35,917 bases of DNA from an uncultured Gammaproteobacteria bacterium (GTDB lineage Bacteria; Patescibacteriota; Microgenomatia; 0-14-0-10-38-17), in NCBI GenBank assembly GCA_964348895.1, contig CAYGEH010000001.1, forward strand, positions 72,676 through 108,592, read 5' to 3'. The position numbers were made by a program, and so were the translations under genes. How positions within the stretch are numbered: the stretch's first letter is position 1; every line of letters starts with the position of its first letter. Shown here piece by piece: positions 2,445-7,520 of the stretch. The notes below the pieces were generated by a model. That model was not told where the DNA came from. It did no database searches and saw nothing but the letters and a program-made list of their open reading frames with translations.

Positions 2445-2762
2445 TTAAGAACACTCTCCCTCAAAGTAATAAGCTACAGCCTCGTTTCGACAGGCAAAAC
2501 AACTATTACTATAAGTTTGATTATTGTTTCCGCAAACTGGCTGATAAATTTCAAAACAAACTTCCGCCCCTCTTTGTTCTTCATAACAAAAGACTGCTGT
2601 CTCGGTTGATGGGGTTTCGTCAATAAAAGAAGACTCATTATCCTCTCTGTTTGTCTCCCTTAGTGTTTCTTTTCTATTTAGGTTGCTAAAATTTAAACCC
2701 AAAATTACCAAAAGAAATAAAATCGCCAATAAAATTAATACTAATCGACTATTTTTGGGCAT
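2445..2762 (-). CDS. Membrane-anchored Kazal-type serine protease inhibitor domain protein
   Basis: N-terminal hydrophobic helix, then C-X9-C-X7-C-X10-C-X2-C-X12-C containing CFEIYQPVCGNNNQTYSNSC (Kazal PVCG..TYxNxC signature). Confidence 0.85.
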   Translation of the reverse strand: MPKNSRLVLILLAILFLLVILGLNFSNLNRKETLRETNREDNESSFIDETPSTETAVFCYEEQRGAEVCFEIYQPVCGNNNQTYSNSCFACRNEAVAYYFEGECS

Positions 2763-3510: not shown

Positions 3511-4383
3511 ATGAATAATAAAGAGGTCTTATTATTTCCAGAGCAACAAAAATATTTTACTCAACGTGGTGAAGCCTTTGTCATCGGTGAAGACATCACA
3601 AAAAAATACCCAGATCAAATAGGGTTTTTAACCAATCAAGGCTTATGGAAAAACTGCCTAAGAAAACATCGAGGCGGTCTTGGTTTGGCCTTGCTCTTAG
3701 ATGCTGATAAACAAACTGGCTTTGTTTTTAACCCCAACAACCAACAAATAGAAAATATATTTTCTATTCAACAAGAATCATTACCCGAAACAATCGCTGG
3801 AGCCATTGTTGTTTGCCCCCGTTCCCCCAACAGCCTAGAGTCTATTTCCGCTAACCTAGAAAGCATCCTCCTTTTTCTTTCAGAAGATGCGCCAGTTTTT
3901 GCTTTTGAAGATTTCCCTGAAAAGAACAATATTGACAAATCGCAAATAACCCAAGAGGCTCAAGCAAGAAAAGAGGCTCTTTTAGACTTAGGATTAGCAG
4001 AAGCAAAAATCTTAACCAGGCCAACCCTACAAAAAGGCGAGAAAATAAACTCCTTTTTAGTTTGGCGAAGTCGAATGCCCAAAAACTGGCGACCAAGAAA
4101 ACCAATTAACCTTCTTGATGAGGGTCCGCTTTGGCGAAGAAGCTTAGTGGAAAACTCTTTGATAGGGGCGACAAGACAATACGAACGAGCAGGGCTTACC
4201 GTCTTGAATGATGACGAAATTAGAGAAGCCCTAAGAAAAACTACCTTTCCTCTTAATACTATTGGGCAGGCAAAAATGGCTTTTGGCTTTCAAGTTGAGG
4301 CGCGTTGTGGTTGTTGTTGGAGCATTGATCTAAAGGGGGTTCAGACAAGAACTTATCAGTGCGAACGAGATTGTCAAAGTTAA
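3511..4383 (+). CDS. Hypothetical protein, 290 aa, with C-terminal Cys cluster (RCGCCW...QCERDC)
   Basis: Long ORF with its own promoter, filling the gap between neighbouring genes; no family recognised with confidence. Confidence 0.75.
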   Translation: MNNKEVLLFPEQQKYFTQRGEAFVIGEDITKKYPDQIGFLTNQGLWKNCLRKHRGGLGLALLLDADKQTGFVFNPNNQQIENIFSIQQESLPETIAGAIVVCPRSPNSLESISANLESILLFLSEDAPVFAFEDFPEKNNIDKSQITQEAQARKEALLDLGLAEAKILTRPTLQKGEKINSFLVWRSRMPKNWRPRKPINLLDEGPLWRRSLVENSLIGATRQYERAGLTVLNDDEIREALRKTTFPLNTIGQAKMAFGFQVEARCGCCWSIDLKGVQTRTYQCERDCQS

Positions 4384-5549
4384 CCGATAACAACTGCTAT
4401 TGGTGTTAATTTAATTTCCATTTTAGCTAGTTGTTCTTGATTTCTAATCACTTTTTCAATATCTTTGTAAGCCCAAGGAGATTCTTCGGCAATATTTCCC
4501 TTTTTCACTTTTCCCAAAACAACCCCCCTATTTTCAATATCGGCTAAAACCATTTGGGGAGAATATTTTTTCTTGGCTTCGTTTCTTCCCATTGACCGAC
4601 CAGCACCATGGGCACAAGAAGAAAAGCTATCTTTATTCCCCAAACCTGTTCCAAGATAAGATGGGGTTCCTAAGCTTCCTGGAACAATCACCGCTTCTCC
4701 TTTTCCAGCTCGAATTGCTCCTTTTCGATGAACCCAAACCTGTTTACCAAAGTGGATTTCGCAGGCGGCATAGTTATGGTGAACATTAATTGTTTCGCTA
4801 AAATTAACAGAGCCAAAGATTTCTTCTAGAACCCTTTTGGCCTTAGCTAAAATCACCTGTCGGTTTTTCTGAGCAAACTCCATCGCCATTTCCATCGCTT
4901 CAATATAGGCCTCCGCCTCTGGTGTTTTGCTGTCAAAATAGGCTAAATCATAGTCTGGTAAGTCAAGGCCCTTGTGATAGCATTGTTTTTTTGCCATTTG
5001 ATGAAACAAGCTGGCGACAGCGTAACCAAAATGCCGAGAGCCAGTGTGAACCATCAAAGCTGCTTGACTCTGTTCGTCTTTTAATAAATCAACAAAATGG
5101 TTTCCTCCACCCAAACTCCCAAGCGATCTTTGGGCTCGATCAACTTCTCTCTCAAGCTCTGGCGGTAATAACTCTTTCCTTAAAAAAAGAGTTCCGGGCT
5201 GGGGTTGATCATAAACTCCAAATCCAATTGGAATTTCTCGCCTTATCTGGTTAACAAATCTTTCTAGATCGTTCATCTTAATCTTCTCAATTGGAATGTC
5301 GGTTCCGACATAAGCCATACCACAACCAATATCTACCCCAACCGCGTTGGGACAAATCGCTCCCTCCAGGGCCAGAACACCGCCAATGGGCATACCATAA
5401 CCAAGATGAGCATCTGGCATTAGGGCGACATGGTGATAGGCTGAAGGAAGATTAGCCATATTTTTGGCTTGCCTCAAACAGGTCTCCTCTAGTTCTTTTG
5501 GATCAGCAAAAACAAGCAGGGGAACTTTTTGATCTTTAATTATGATCAT
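4380..5549 (-). CDS. rtcB: RNA 3'-phosphate/2',3'-cyclic-phosphate ligase RtcB
   Basis: MPDAHLGYGMPIGGV, VGVDIGCGM, SLGGGNHF, HTGSR, HHNY, WVHRKGA, PGSLG, SCAHGAGR (guanylylated His motif). Confidence 0.96.
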   Translation of the reverse strand: MIIIKDQKVPLLVFADPKELEETCLRQAKNMANLPSAYHHVALMPDAHLGYGMPIGGVLALEGAICPNAVGVDIGCGMAYVGTDIPIEKIKMNDLERFVNQIRREIPIGFGVYDQPQPGTLFLRKELLPPELEREVDRAQRSLGSLGGGNHFVDLLKDEQSQAALMVHTGSRHFGYAVASLFHQMAKKQCYHKGLDLPDYDLAYFDSKTPEAEAYIEAMEMAMEFAQKNRQVILAKAKRVLEEIFGSVNFSETINVHHNYAACEIHFGKQVWVHRKGAIRAGKGEAVIVPGSLGTPSYLGTGLGNKDSFSSCAHGAGRSMGRNEAKKKYSPQMVLADIENRGVVLGKVKKGNIAEESPWAYKDIEKVIRNQEQLAKMEIKLTPIAVVIG

Positions 5550-5559
5550 AAGAAAGGCT

Positions 5560-6357
5560 TCACTTCTGTTCGTTATGCCAAAAGGTAATTATTTTCTCTC
5601 TGCGACTATCCAAGGATTCTTGGTTAATAATCCCCGCTCCGCTAATACAACCGCCTTCGCAATAAAGAATATCCAGTAATTTTATTTCTGGTTGACTAGA
5701 AAATTCCTGAAGTGTTTTCTCGACTAATTCTGGTCCAGAAATAACACTATATTCGGAATCAGTAAGCGTTTTGGTTAGTCCAGACGATTGGGCCAATCCT
5801 CCGGAAATCGGATAGAGCCTTGTGTGCGAGGCAGCAAGGTCAAAAGAATAATCTTGGTCGCTTTTTTGAGGAAAAATATTTTTAATTCTAAATATTTCCG
5901 CTATTTCTTGATAAGTTAAAACCACTATCTCTAGCTCCGCGTGGTCCTCTTTGGCTTCTAATTTCTTGGCAACACACGGACCAATATAGACTTTTCGATG
6001 ATTTGGATATTTTTCGGCGACTATTTTTGCCGTAGCGATCATTGGTGAATCAACTAAAGCTAGAAATGGAACAAGATCGGGGTATTTATTTTTAACTAAA
6101 CGAACAATCGTAGGACAAGGAGCAGTGATATATCTTTGACCAGGACTAAGTTTTAATAAATCAAGCAGTTGGCGATTGGTCTCCACCGCTCCGACCCCAA
6201 CCTCAACCACATGGCCAAAACCCAATCGCCTTAACATTCCAACAAACTCAGGATAAGAAAAATCAACCAGAAAAGATGGGGCAATCATCGCCACCATTTC
6301 CTCTTTTCTCTCCACAAATCCAAGAATTTCTTCTATTTCCGCAGTGTAATTGCTCAT
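5560..6357 (-). CDS. Stand-alone [FeFe]-hydrogenase H-cluster-domain protein (ultraminimal, 265 aa)
   Basis: IAPSF; P1 ITAPC81PT; DSPM; P2 GPC128VAK131KLE134; P3 DILYC233EGGC237ISGAG. No accessory ferredoxin domains. Confidence 0.88.
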   Translation of the reverse strand: MSNYTAEIEEILGFVERKEEMVAMIAPSFLVDFSYPEFVGMLRRLGFGHVVEVGVGAVETNRQLLDLLKLSPGQRYITAPCPTIVRLVKNKYPDLVPFLALVDSPMIATAKIVAEKYPNHRKVYIGPCVAKKLEAKEDHAELEIVVLTYQEIAEIFRIKNIFPQKSDQDYSFDLAASHTRLYPISGGLAQSSGLTKTLTDSEYSVISGPELVEKTLQEFSSQPEIKLLDILYCEGGCISGAGIINQESLDSRREKIITFWHNEQK

Positions 6358-6365
6358 AAATAAAG

Positions 6366-6881
6366 TCAGAGTCTGTTAATCTTTTTTAAAAAGAAATAGG
6401 CCAATAAACCACCAACTAAAGCGGTAAAAAGCTGCGACCAACCCATCATCAAGACTATTCTTTGGGCAACTTCTCTTTTACTAAATAAGCCAACCACTGT
6501 CATGCTGGAACTGAATAAGAAGAAGAACTTTAAAGTGCCGGCCACCACTACTCCTAGCCAATAATTGTCCTTCAAATAATTAAAAGCTATTACTAATATA
6601 GTGTTTCCCACCATGATAAAAGGAATCATTGGGGCTAAAACTGGAGGCAAAAGGCCAGTGGATAACGCGATTAGACTTGGGATCAAGCCAACTAAAATCC
6701 CCGCCTGAACACCCAAAAGAATAGTGGAAACAAATAGGGTAGCGTTAACAAGGGGACCAGTAATCGCCTGATGTCCAAATAAGGGCGCCAGGGTAGCAAC
6801 CCCCACTAAAATTACAAGCTGGGTTAGAAAAAGAATTCTTTCTTTGTCTAGTGTTAAAATTTTTGTTTTATTCATAAACAT
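6366..6881 (-). CDS. ECF-transporter S-component-like integral membrane protein (about 171 aa, about 6 TM)
   Basis: Size, hydrophobic pattern and the motif HQAITGPLVNATLF...GLIPSLIAL...GLLPP...PFIMVGN match my recollection of S-component families. Start re-called to MFMNK (6881, or 6875). Confidence 0.65.
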   Translation of the reverse strand: MFMNKTKILTLDKERILFLTQLVILVGVATLAPLFGHQAITGPLVNATLFVSTILLGVQAGILVGLIPSLIALSTGLLPPVLAPMIPFIMVGNTILVIAFNYLKDNYWLGVVVAGTLKFFFLFSSSMTVVGLFSKREVAQRIVLMMGWSQLFTALVGGLLAYFFLKKINRL

Positions 6882-6959
6882 TCTCGTTCTTGTTTTCTTG
6901 TTGCTATTTTCGCGTAAAATCAGCTGGCGCACTGTTTAAATAATTCAATCCGTGTTCTT

Positions 6960-6968
6960 ATTATGACA
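6960..6968 (-). promoter_or_regulatory. Probable extended -10 promoter (TGtCATAAT) for the S-component/hydrogenase/rtcB operon
   Basis: Minus strand reads gtgtCATAATaagaacacgg; implies a 5' leader of about 70-80 nt. Confidence 0.45.
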
Positions 6969-7091
6969 CAAAACTTCTATCTCTTAATTGGTTAGACTCA
7001 TAGATTTAGAAGTTTTTCACCTTGTAAATATGCACTCAATGGCTTCAAGTGTTCTATCCCCTTATATGATCTGTAATAAAAATAATTTTCA

Positions 7092-7520
7092 TTATTTTTT
7101 ATATAAAACAAAATGCGGCAAGAGATTTAAGTCAATATAGTTAAACATCCAATAATTAGCCCTTTTAGCCGTTTGTGGTAATTGATATTTTTTTAAATTA
7201 TTTTTCGATACAAAAGGATAAAATCTAATTTCTTGATGGCTCCCAGATTTATCTTCCCACTTAAAATTAGCTATCATTGGAGGAACGAGAAAACCTGATT
7301 TCAACACTTTGTCCATTATCTGCCAACCTGCTCCAAAGATTTTCTTTTTTGGCTTTGAAAGATTGGTTTTTACTTGTGCCCGAAAAGAGCATCCTGTACA
7401 TTGGACATCATAGAGTGGGTAGTTGGGAGGTAGAGCCATTAGTTTCTTGCTACAATTTGGACAAGGGACAAGTTCAATAACTTCTAGTTCTCCTGTATTT
7501 CCAGCTTGTTTATTAGACAT
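7092..7520 (-). CDS. DpnI (Dam-replacing)-like nuclease, catalytic domain only (142 aa)
   Basis: GE..CPNC-x14-D-x2-CxxC-x4-QxK; later GAGWQIM and LPQTAKRANY..YIDLNLLP, colinear with the recalled DpnI motifs CPNC..PVADFYCxxC..ELKS, DGAYxTM and LAPTARRAGW..IDLSQVP. Confidence 0.75.
   Translation of the reverse strand: MSNKQAGNTGELEVIELVPCPNCSKKLMALPPNYPLYDVQCTGCSFRAQVKTNLSKPKKKIFGAGWQIMDKVLKSGFLVPPMIANFKWEDKSGSHQEIRFYPFVSKNNLKKYQLPQTAKRANYWMFNYIDLNLLPHFVLYKK

What the first reader, a model, noticed from the sequence alone, without database searches (positions are those of the whole stretch)
5560..6357. Ultraminimal [FeFe]-hydrogenase-like protein: only four Cys, all at H-cluster ligand positions
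Seen: 265 aa with exactly four Cys (C81, C128, C233, C237), which map to the four H-cluster ligands of motifs P1/P2/P3. K131 and E134 (CxxKxxE) are kept, and there are no ferredoxin/F-cluster domains. Established: in group A enzymes (CpI numbering) P1 is TSCCP with the proton-transfer C299, P2 is MPC and P3 is ExMxC. Here C299 is Pro (TAPCP), M353 is Gly and M497 is Leu, a pattern closer to the non-prototypical sensory/ultraminimal lineages. Similarly small H-domain-only enzymes have been described from DPANN archaea. Inference: a CPR symbiont may carry a stripped H2-evolving or H2-sensing enzyme, or a Nar1/IOP1-like Fe-S protein that binds no [2Fe]H.
Basis: partly seen in the sequence, partly recalled or inferred. 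Interest (0 to 1): 0.85.

Follow-up and report, generated by a model that had tools for sequence, protein, structure and literature searches.

The report
Minimal CPR [FeFe]-hydrogenase with membrane partner
This is a stripped-down, 265-residue [FeFe]-hydrogenase catalytic domain from a Patescibacteria (CPR) genome, the bacterial counterpart of the "ultraminimal" hydrogenases recently shown to be active in DPANN archaea, and it is almost always encoded just behind an uncharacterised vitamin-transporter-like membrane protein that also accompanies hydrogenases in those archaea.

Summary
Window 5560-6357 (minus strand) encodes a 265-aa protein that is a single PF02906 H-domain. It has exactly four Cys, at the H-cluster ligand positions, and K131/E134 are kept. 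Pro, Gly and Leu stand at CpI C299, M353 and M497. It belongs to a large family of 257-279-aa proteins in Patescibacteria, in which the four Cys and the pocket-lining residues are invariant. In NJ trees this family joins archaeal (Nanoarchaeota/Pacearchaeota) H-domain-only proteins in one clade (bootstrap 92). That clade sits next to the multidomain group C sensors (86), as published for group E. The AlphaFold model is confident and matches HydA catalytic domains.

A ~175-aa six-helix membrane protein with the fold of an ECF-transporter S component lies directly upstream in 73 of 84 loci. The same family flanks group A1 and HydABC hydrogenases in DPANN archaea and is evidently the undescribed "hyd6TM" of Greening et al. 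2024.

Most likely this is a real but slow ferredoxin-coupled hydrogenase working with that partner. H-cluster loading is unproven, and no maturase gene lies in the window. I rate it a new variant of a known kind, of moderately high interest.

The parts
5560..6357 (-). Gene for the minimal H-domain-only [FeFe]-hydrogenase homologue (265 aa).
   Evidence: ORF and translation. PF02906 E 3e-34. AF2 pLDDT 90.6, and Foldseek TMq 0.72-0.80 to HydA of HydABC, CbA5H and CpI.
6271..6282 (-). A26-P27-S28-F29, equivalent to CpI A230-P231-S232. This is the backbone that holds the proximal CN ligand.
   Evidence: Invariant in the family and kept in nearly all sensors and minimal proteins. The CpI role is from established knowledge.
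6112..6126 (-). P1 motif T78-A79-P80-C81-P82. C81 is a [4Fe-4S]H ligand. Pro80 replaces the proton-relay Cys299.
   Evidence: Alignment to TSCCP of solved HydA chains. C81 is invariant and P80 is >=90% conserved.
5956..5982 (-). P2 motif G126-P127-C128-V-A-K131-K-L-E134. It carries a Cys ligand, the Lys that binds the distal CN, and its Glu partner. Gly replaces M353.
5632..5673 (-). P3 motif D229-I-L231-Y-C233-E-G-G-C237-I-S-G-A-G242. C233 is a cluster ligand and C237 is the Cys that bridges to [2Fe]H. Leu replaces M497.
6366..6881 (-). Conserved partner gene: a six-helix membrane protein with an ECF S-component-like fold ('hyd6TM'-type). It is 171 aa counted from the Met that aligns with the family start. 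The mechanical ORF runs on to a GTG at 6932. It stops 8 nt before the hydrogenase start codon.
   Evidence: Directly upstream on the same strand in 73 of 84 family loci. AF2 pLDDT 85.5 with six helices. The nine best Foldseek hits are all ECF S components (RibU, ThiT, PanT; eight with TMq 0.53-0.68, one 0.48). Weak PF12822 hit, 25.3 bits, below the 30.7 cutoff. Homologues lie next to hydrogenase genes in CPR and DPANN.
6960..6987 (-). Promoter-like site (TTAAGA-16-TG-CATAAT) ahead of the membrane-protein gene. It is a possible start of the two- or three-gene transcript.
   Evidence: This is weak: the number of such sites in the region is not above the shuffled expectation.

Best explanation
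The gene encodes a genuine, extremely reduced [FeFe]-hydrogenase. It belongs to a Patescibacteria-specific subclade of the H-domain-only ('ultraminimal', group E-like) lineage.

Shown:
- The protein is one condensed H-domain.
- Its only four Cys sit at the positions that bind [4Fe-4S]H, and C237 is the one that bridges to [2Fe]H.
- The residues that cradle the CN/CO ligands are invariant: A26-P27-S28, S104-P105, K131-E134, S185-G186-G187.
- There is no accessory cluster.
- The canonical proton relay (C299/E279/S319/E282/R286) is replaced by P80/T60/A100/Q63/L67.

Inferred: a solvent-exposed H-cluster exchanges electrons directly with a small soluble carrier such as ferredoxin. Protons arrive by a non-canonical or solvent route. 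The expected result is a slow enzyme biased to H2 evolution that disposes of fermentative reductant, as shown for the archaeal group E enzyme Fm.

Inferred: it works as a unit with the S-component-like membrane protein encoded just upstream, 8 nt apart here and overlapping in most relatives. That protein either tethers the enzyme at the membrane or supplies something the enzyme needs.
For: - Domain and motifs.
- Invariance of the ligand and pocket residues down to 33-45% identity.
- Confident H-domain model and fold matches.
- Phylogeny: the CPR subclade has bootstrap 92. All H-domain-only proteins (CPR plus Nanoarchaeota/Pacearchaeota-type) form one clade with bootstrap 92. That clade plus the group C sensors separates from groups A and B with bootstrap 86 (smaller trees).
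- An archaeal minimal protein (L169/P0140) has the same NCBIfam score profile as the window protein and the same membrane gene overlapping its start.
- The membrane partner also flanks group A1 enzymes, including the Micrarchaeota UBA95 locus whose enzyme 'Mu' evolved H2 in Greening et al., and HydABC operons in DPANN (PMC11216029).
- The group E enzyme Fm binds [2Fe]adt and evolves H2 although its genome lacks HydEFG (PMC11216029).
- A metatranscriptome contig 99% identical to the window covers the 5' end of the gene.
Against: - No HydE/F/G, ferredoxin or PFOR gene lies in the 36-kb window. The whole genome could not be examined.
- Pro at the C299 position has no biochemical precedent that I know of, and loss of this Cys nearly abolishes turnover in group A enzymes.
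- The motif signature (non-Cys at 299, Gly at M353) is the one found in low-activity sensory enzymes.
- The reference sequences Fm and Na were not available, so 'group E' is represented here by proxies.
- The trees are neighbour-joining only.
- The RNA contig could derive from contaminating DNA.
Confidence: 0.55

Rival explanations
1. It is a detached H2/redox sensor module. The H-domain binds an H-cluster but turns over slowly. It reports H2 or redox state to the adjacent membrane protein, gating transport, in the way the H-domain of group C proteins reports to PAS, kinase or GGDEF outputs.
For: The nearest multidomain relatives (30-37% identity) are Fer4 + H-domain + PF04060 + PAS/HisKA/GGDEF/sigma-54 proteins. 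It shares the sensor-type signature of non-Cys at C299, GPC and SPM, and TSPCP occurs in many sensors. It is tightly coupled to a transporter-like protein.
Against: It has no PAS or output domain and no PF04060 Cys motif. The minimal proteins form their own clade apart from the sensors. The same membrane protein accompanies catalytic group A1 and HydABC enzymes, which are not sensors. The characterised group E enzyme is catalytically competent (PMC11216029).
Confidence: 0.17
2. It is a hydrogenase-fold Fe-S protein without [2Fe]H. It carries only the [4Fe-4S] cluster and serves as an electron carrier, a redox/O2-sensitive switch, or an Fe-S handling factor, functionally like eukaryotic Nar1/IOP1.
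For: No maturase genes lie in the window. The proton relay is completely lost. In one sublineage the gene sits between rubrerythrin/desulfoferrodoxin and a DUF362 protein, which suggests a role in oxidative-stress electron flow.
Against: Residues that matter only for holding [2Fe]H are invariant across more than 400 clusters and in distant relatives. These are the bridging-Cys context CxGGC, K131-E134, A26-P27-S28 and S104-P105. One caveat from memory: Nar1-type proteins also keep the PCxxKKxE motif. The protein lacks the N-terminal Cys-rich domain of Nar1. Lack of maturases does not prevent activity of the archaeal relatives after maturation (PMC11216029). It is genetically linked to a partner of true hydrogenases.
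Confidence: 0.15
3. It is an annotation or assembly artefact, or a decaying remnant of a larger sensory hydrogenase gene.
For: Its length equals just the H-domain of 570-800-aa relatives.
Against: Intact ORFs of 257-279 aa recur in hundreds of independent contigs and several CPR classes, with strong purifying conservation and a conserved partner gene. The same sequence is present at even depth in four independent runs.
Confidence: 0.01

Closest known systems
Group E 'ultraminimal' [FeFe] hydrogenases of DPANN archaea (Greening et al., Cell 2024, PMC11216029; Fm from Ca. Forterrea multitransposorum)
   Same: It consists of the H-domain only, with condensed loops, a single [4Fe-4S] plus [2Fe] site, no accessory clusters, non-canonical proton-path residues and a host with a tiny genome. 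It clusters with archaeal H-domain-only proteins (bootstrap 92). The same membrane-protein gene lies upstream of one archaeal member.
   Different: The host is bacterial (Patescibacteria), whereas group E was described as an archaeal monophylum. It is shorter (257-279 aa against a mean of 286). It shares only 29-36% identity with the archaeal proxies. Pro stands at the C299 position where the archaeal proxies have Val. It forms its own subclade (bootstrap 92). Activity is untested.
Group C/D putative sensory [FeFe] hydrogenases (TmHydS, TamHydS types)
   Same: It shares 30-37% identity in the H-domain. It has the same signature: non-Cys at C299 (often Pro), Gly at M353, Met at Q325, and APSF. 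The sensors are the sister group in the tree.
   Different: It has no N-terminal Fer4 domain, no PF04060 Cys motif, and no PAS, kinase, GGDEF or sigma-54 output domains. It has CxxxC spacing in P3, where many sensors have CxxC.
Minimal group A1 hydrogenases (Chlamydomonas HydA1; DPANN 'Mu'/'Ia', 355-380 aa)
   Same: These are also H-domain-only enzymes. The DPANN members are flanked by the same membrane-protein family.
   Different: Group A enzymes keep TSCCP, MPC and the Glu/Arg proton path, and score 284-340 bits on TIGR02512 against 67 for the window protein. Identity to the window protein is only 26-30%. The gene order is reversed: hydA comes first, then the membrane gene.
ECF-transporter S components (RibU, ThiT, PanT), for the partner protein
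   Same: It has six membrane helices of about the same size. Foldseek gives TMq 0.53-0.68 at probability 1.0 for eight of the nine S-component hits. Conserved polar residues lie within the helices (Q38, N46, R75, N93, K118, Q150).
   Different: It has no significant sequence family. The PF12822 hit is below cutoff for the window copy and absent for the others, and there are no NCBIfam or PDB sequence hits. No EcfA or EcfT genes are nearby. Its substrate, if any, is unknown.
Eukaryotic Nar1/IOP1 (NARFL) hydrogenase-like CIA proteins
   Same: They share the PF02906 fold and keep the four H-cluster-type Cys while not being canonical hydrogenases.
   Different: Nar1 has an additional N-terminal Cys-rich ferredoxin-like domain and is eukaryotic. 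The window protein has no other Cys and groups with prokaryotic minimal and sensory clades.

Membership tests
[FeFe]-hydrogenase catalytic (H) domain | PF02906 domain above the curated threshold, with an H-domain fold. | tested here: met
   119 bits against a cutoff of 22.1. AF2 pLDDT 90.6, and Foldseek E 1e-13 to 1e-10 with TMq 0.7-0.8 to HydA structures.
[FeFe]-hydrogenase catalytic (H) domain | Four Cys ligands in motifs P1, P2 and P3, including the bridging Cys. | tested here: met
   C81, C128, C233 and C237 align to C300, C355, C499 and C503 and are invariant.
[FeFe]-hydrogenase catalytic (H) domain | The Lys/Glu pair that holds the distal CN (K358/E361), and the A-P-S backbone for the proximal CN. 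| tested here: met
   K131, E134, A26, P27 and S28 are invariant.
[FeFe]-hydrogenase catalytic (H) domain | The proton-relay Cys (C299) and the Glu/Ser/Arg pathway of prototypical enzymes. | tested here: not met
   P80, T60, Q63, L67 and A100 stand at these positions. This feature defines group A, not the superfamily; groups C, D and E also lack it.
[FeFe]-hydrogenase catalytic (H) domain | HydE/HydF/HydG maturases in the genome. | tested here: inconclusive
   None among the window's ORFs. The only radical-SAM gene is MiaB-like. The rest of the ~0.69-Mb contig could not be read. Most archaea with active relatives also lack these genes (PMC11216029).
[FeFe]-hydrogenase catalytic (H) domain | Binds [2Fe]H and turns over H2. 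| not testable with these tools
   This needs expression, maturation, FTIR and H2 assays.
Group E ultraminimal [FeFe] hydrogenase | H-domain only, about 286 aa, no accessory Fe-S domain. | tested here: met
   265 aa, a single Pfam domain and four Cys.
Group E ultraminimal [FeFe] hydrogenase | Phylogenetic placement with the archaeal group E sequences, as sister to group C. | tested here: inconclusive
   The NJ clade of CPR plus archaeal H-domain-only proteins has bootstrap 92 and sits next to the sensors with bootstrap 86. However, the published references Fm and Na were not obtainable. The archaeal proxies were identified only by gene context and source names. No ML tree was made.
Group E ultraminimal [FeFe] hydrogenase | Archaeal (DPANN) host, as the group was defined. 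| tested here: not met
   Relatives are named Nealsonbacteria, Staskawiczbacteria, Paceibacterota, Gottesmanbacteria and Saccharibacteria. The window has bacterial housekeeping genes.
Group C sensory [FeFe] hydrogenase | C-terminal PF04060 Cys motif plus a PAS and/or signalling output domain, and an N-terminal Fer4 domain. | tested here: not met
   All are absent from the window protein and present in its multidomain relatives.
Nar1/IOP1-like | N-terminal Cys-rich ferredoxin-like domain; eukaryotic CIA component. | tested here: not met
   There are no Cys outside the four H-cluster positions, and the genome context is prokaryotic.
ECF transporter S component (partner protein) | Six-helix S-component fold. 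| tested here: met
   AF2 model with six helices. The nine best PDB hits are all S components, eight with TMq 0.53-0.68 and one with 0.48.
ECF transporter S component (partner protein) | Sequence membership (PF12822 or a related model above threshold). | tested here: not met
   25.3 bits against a cutoff of 30.7 for the window copy, and no hit for five other members. No NCBIfam hit.
ECF transporter S component (partner protein) | Works with an EcfT/EcfA/EcfA' energising module. | tested here: inconclusive
   No such genes lie in the window. The genome-wide state is unknown.

The most novel reading that the evidence does not exclude
The S-component-like membrane protein may be a hydrogenase biogenesis factor of maturase-less ultra-small symbionts. 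On this reading it imports a preformed [2Fe] subcluster or one of its precursors from the host or the environment, and hands it to the exposed apo-H-domain encoded next to it. Two things would then be explained. One is why the same orphan membrane protein is genetically tied to three different hydrogenase classes (minimal E-like, A1 and HydABC) specifically in CPR bacteria and DPANN archaea. The other is how these organisms make active enzymes without HydEFG.
Probability: 0.1. Interest if true: 0.92.

Novelty: new variant of a known kind. Interest (0 to 1): 0.62.

Why it matters
- **Reach of the lineage.** The ultraminimal hydrogenase lineage was published as an archaeal monophylum. If confirmed, this finding extends it to bacteria. 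It also suggests that CPR and DPANN, the two radiations of tiny episymbionts, share both the enzyme and its membrane partner.
- **Size and chemistry.** At 257-265 aa these would be the smallest natural H-cluster scaffolds known, with an untested Pro at the proton-relay position. That is useful for defining the minimal requirements of H2 catalysis and for engineering.
- **H2 budgets.** The family is widespread in groundwater, sediment and wastewater Patescibacteria. It is listed in MAG studies simply as "Fe-Fe hydrogenase", so its real activity affects H2 budgets inferred for these communities.
- **Maturation.** The conserved hyd6TM-type partner gives a concrete, testable handle on an open question: how hydrogenases are matured or deployed in organisms without HydEFG.

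Tried and rejected
- The Fm and Na reference sequences were sought in the supplements of PMC11216029, but none are held. Archaeal proxies were used instead.
- Source names from cluster look-ups were almost all empty.
- A genome scan with the single protein found only one close relative. The first profile scan was swamped by sensor-type proteins. The metagenome scan was therefore used for synteny.
- For the membrane protein, Pfam and NCBIfam gave nothing for typical members and the PDB sequence search gave nothing. Only the fold comparison was informative.
- No fusion proteins joining the membrane protein to an H-domain were found.
- The radical-SAM gene next to an archaeal minimal hydrogenase (L170) is a TIGR04084 SPASM protein, not HydE or HydG. 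The window's own radical-SAM gene is MiaB-like and sits beside MiaA.
- The promoter and terminator scan was not above shuffled expectation.
- Rfam and tRNA scans found only tRNA-Gln.
- Literature searches found no description of this CPR family beyond generic "Fe-Fe hydrogenase" listings.
- Pocket volume or occlusion could not be measured because model coordinates are not exposed.
- A Nar1-like identity was rejected for lack of the N-terminal Cys domain.
- A gene-fragment or artefact origin was rejected because intact copies recur widely.
Full report
**1. What is there.**
The ORF at window 5560-6357 lies on the minus strand and encodes 265 aa. It has exactly four cysteines, C81, C128, C233 and C237, and the CxxKxxE Lys/Glu pair K131/E134. 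Pfam sees one domain, PF02906 (Fe_hyd_lg_C), covering residues 20-241 end to end at E 3e-34, and nothing else. NCBIfam gives only sub-threshold matches. The best is the group B1 model (141 bits against a cutoff of 450), followed by the group A model (67 bits).

HMMER alignments to solved HydA chains set TAPCP against TSCCP, IGPCVAKKLE against MPCTAKKFE, and DILYCEGGC against EVMACxxGC. In CpI numbering, which I take from my own knowledge of that sequence:
- Cluster ligands: C81 = C300, C128 = C355, C233 = C499, C237 = C503.
- CN-binding pair: K131 = K358, E134 = E361.
- Substitutions near [2Fe]H: P80 = C299, G126 = M353, L231 = M497.
- Proton-path positions: E279, E282, R286 and S319 are T60, Q63, L67 and A100.

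The strand was not stated.

**2. Family and conservation.**
The protein search returned more than 400 clusters of 240-290-aa proteins carrying only PF02906. Where sources named them, the names were Nealsonbacteria, Staskawiczbacteria, Paceibacterota or "Patescibacteria group". Genome scans added Gottesmanbacteria (45% identity), Saccharibacteria, Microgenomates, Levybacteria and Peribacteria.

Over 120 homologues the following are invariant or nearly so:
- the four Cys
- K131 and E134
- A26-P27-S28-F29
- T60-N61-x-Q63
- S104-P105-M106
- G126-P127
- Y182
- S185-G186-G187
- D229-x-L231
- the CxGGCxxG motif

These are the positions that line the H-cluster in solved enzymes. An AlphaFold2 model built on 57 sequences is confident (pLDDT 90.6, pTM 0.90). 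Its best PDB matches are the catalytic domains of HydABC HydA, CbA5H, CpI, DdH and CrHydA1 (Foldseek E 1e-13 to 1e-10, TMq 0.68-0.80).

**3. Relatives outside the family.**
The nearest non-CPR relatives share 30-37% identity. They are the H-domains of 570-800-aa proteins with an N-terminal 2x[4Fe-4S] domain, a PF04060 Cys motif, and PAS, HisKA-HATPase, GGDEF-HD or sigma-54 activator domains. That is the architecture of putative sensory group C hydrogenases.

A profile search of 1.8 billion representatives showed that several features characterise this whole sensory and minimal assemblage:
- a residue other than Cys at the C299 position
- Gly at M353
- Met at Q325
- the APSF motif

Pro at the C299 position is frequent in the multidomain proteins too (TSPCP).

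**4. Relation to the published ultraminimal enzymes.**
Greening et al. (PMC11216029) defined group E as archaeal H-domain-only enzymes, mean length 286 aa, sister to group C. They showed that Fm binds [2Fe]adt, gives H-cluster FTIR bands and is biased to H2 evolution. Most host genomes lack HydEFG. Their sequences were not retrievable, so I identified archaeal proxies:
- P0140 (286 aa) lies on a contig with an archaeal Hel308-type helicase gene.
- P0168 (316 aa) lies beside split archaeal rpoB genes.
- Homologues of P0140 are named Nanoarchaeota, Pacearchaeota or "archaeon", and one Absconditabacteria. The window's family comes next at 36-38% identity, ahead of group B1/B3 at 30-32%.

With 250 H-domains aligned by MAFFT L-INS-i, a neighbour-joining tree with 100 bootstraps gave the following (smaller trees gave 53-70):
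- The CPR "Pro-type" subclade containing the window protein has support 92.
- All H-domain-only proteins (CPR plus archaeal-type) form one clade with support 92.
- That clade plus the sensors separates from groups A and B with support 86.

The topology matches the published placement of E next to C. I therefore regard the window protein as a member of a bacterial subclade of an enlarged group E. Three caveats apply. The references were proxies, the method was NJ, and identity to the archaeal proxies is only 29-36%, no higher than to the sensors.

**5.
Directly upstream on the same strand, 8 nt from the start codon, is an ORF at 6366-6932. Its likely start is the Met at 6881, giving 171 aa.

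Among 89 family loci the wider neighbourhood varies. A homologue of this ORF nonetheless sits immediately upstream, usually overlapping the hydrogenase start, in 73 of the 84 loci that have enough upstream sequence. This includes the 45%-identical Gottesmanbacteria locus.

The family is annotated only as hypothetical and has no Pfam or NCBIfam model. The window copy alone gives a sub-threshold PF12822 hit. Its AlphaFold model (pLDDT 85.5) has six helices. The nine best PDB matches are all ECF-transporter S components (RibU, ThiT, PanT, folate S component), and eight of them have TMq 0.53-0.68 at probability 1.0.

A genome scan with its profile found 70 loci, in many Patescibacteria classes and in Woesearchaeota, Nanoarchaeota, Altiarchaeota, Aenigmatarchaeota and Micrarchaeota. 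A hydrogenase gene lies within 4 kb in 36 of 69 of these. Seven more have HydB- or HydC-like genes next to it, and several others are cut by contig ends. The arrangement differs by lineage:
- In CPR, the minimal gene follows the membrane gene.
- In DPANN, a 355-380-aa group A enzyme (TIGR02512 284-340 bits) directly precedes it. One such locus is Micrarchaeota UBA95, the source of the active "Mu" enzyme.
- Elsewhere in DPANN, a hydCBA operon adjoins it.
- The archaeal minimal gene P0140 also has it upstream and overlapping.

[quoted passage not shown] It appears only in the figure legends of Greening et al..

**6. Interpretation.**
Three lines favour a real hydrogenase over a bare Fe-S protein or a free sensor:
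- the invariant H-cluster environment
- clade membership with an experimentally active enzyme type
- a partner shared with catalytic group A1/A3 enzymes

The complete loss of the canonical proton path, and Pro at the relay position, argue for slow turnover or an alternative proton route. The absence of accessory clusters implies direct electron exchange with a soluble carrier.

No maturase, ferredoxin, PFOR or ECF energising gene occurs in the window. The window otherwise holds housekeeping genes: RtcB, GluRS, AspRS/AsnRS-type, RelA/SpoT, RecJ, CCA-adding enzyme, SecDF, MiaA/MiaB and YchF. I could not read the remainder of the ~0.69-Mb contig, so the maturation route is open.

A 259-nt contig from a wastewater metatranscriptome is 99% identical to 6110-6360. 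This hints at expression, with the usual DNA-carry-over caveat.

A small sublineage lacks the membrane gene. There the hydrogenase gene sits between rubrerythrin plus desulfoferrodoxin and a DUF362 protein, which hints at a link to oxidative-stress electron flow.

**7. Role of the partner.**
This is inference only. It may be a membrane tether or docking site. It may instead be a carrier, given the conserved intramembrane polar residues Q38, N46, R75, N93, K118 and Q150, which are typical of S-component binding pockets.

Synthetic [2Fe]adt can activate apo-HydA spontaneously (established semisynthetic maturation, as used in PMC11216029). These symbionts mostly lack HydEFG. So the most novel reading not excluded is uptake of a [2Fe] cofactor or precursor. 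I give that about 10%.

**8. Novelty and score.**
The protein family is already in the databases under a generic domain name. "Fe-Fe hydrogenase" is listed in Patescibacteria MAG papers, and the ultraminimal concept was published in 2024. In the searchable literature I found no description of any of the following:
- a bacterial (CPR) branch of the minimal lineage
- its still smaller size
- the TxPCP motif in a stand-alone enzyme
- the near-obligate pairing with an S-component-fold membrane protein shared across CPR and DPANN

I rate it a new variant of a known kind, with interest about 0.6.

Noticed in passing
window 2445-2762 (-): A 105-aa ORF with a Kazal-type serine-protease-inhibitor domain (PF00050 E 4e-8, above the curated cutoff). 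Kazal domains are unusual in bacteria, so this is odd in a CPR genome.
   Followed up: no
L003, L140, L149, L150, L153 (hydrogenase at about 5001-6800 of each locus): A sublineage of the same minimal hydrogenase lacks the upstream membrane gene. Instead it is flanked by rubrerythrin and desulfoferrodoxin upstream, and by a DUF362/Npun_F2552-like protein overlapping downstream. This suggests a link to O2/ROS detoxification.
   Followed up: partly
P0124 (representative-library hit, not in the window): A 4122-aa protein made of many tandem, nearly identical group A HydA units (TSCC, MPC and MCEGGC motifs) joined by Gly/His/Asn-rich linkers. It looks like a hydrogenase polyprotein, probably eukaryotic.
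   Followed up: partly
L219 (4452-5270); L178, L182, L187, L193, L196, L205, L208, L210, L211, L217: A contig labelled Bathyarchaeia carries the CPR-type membrane-gene plus minimal-hydrogenase pair. Many MAG contigs labelled 'Methanosarcinales' carry DPANN-like hydCBA plus the membrane gene. These may be mis-binning or mislabelling, or lateral transfer.
   Followed up: no
L067 9172-9825 (-): A homologue of the membrane protein (E 3e-22) lies about 1.4 kb downstream of a 674-aa sensor-type hydrogenase gene in a Spirochaetota MAG. The association may therefore reach beyond CPR and DPANN.
   Followed up: no
window 4380-5549 (-) and 3511-4383 (+): An RtcB RNA ligase gene follows the hydrogenase gene after 10 nt on the same strand. 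It is not a conserved neighbour in other loci. A convergent 290-aa ORF with no family match and a Cys-rich C-terminus (CGCCW...CERDC) overlaps its 3' end by 4 nt.
   Followed up: partly
window 7092-7520 (-): A 142-aa protein matches the DpnI / Dam-replacing family (PF06044, E 1e-8). It has two CxxC pairs and lies just upstream of the operon. It may be a solitary methyl-directed restriction-type nuclease.
   Followed up: no
window 6110-6360: A wastewater metatranscriptome run (X14) holds a 259-nt contig 99% identical to the 5' part of the hydrogenase gene. Near-identical DNA occurs in four runs of one study, and related DNA in sediment, groundwater and landfill metagenomes.
   Followed up: partly
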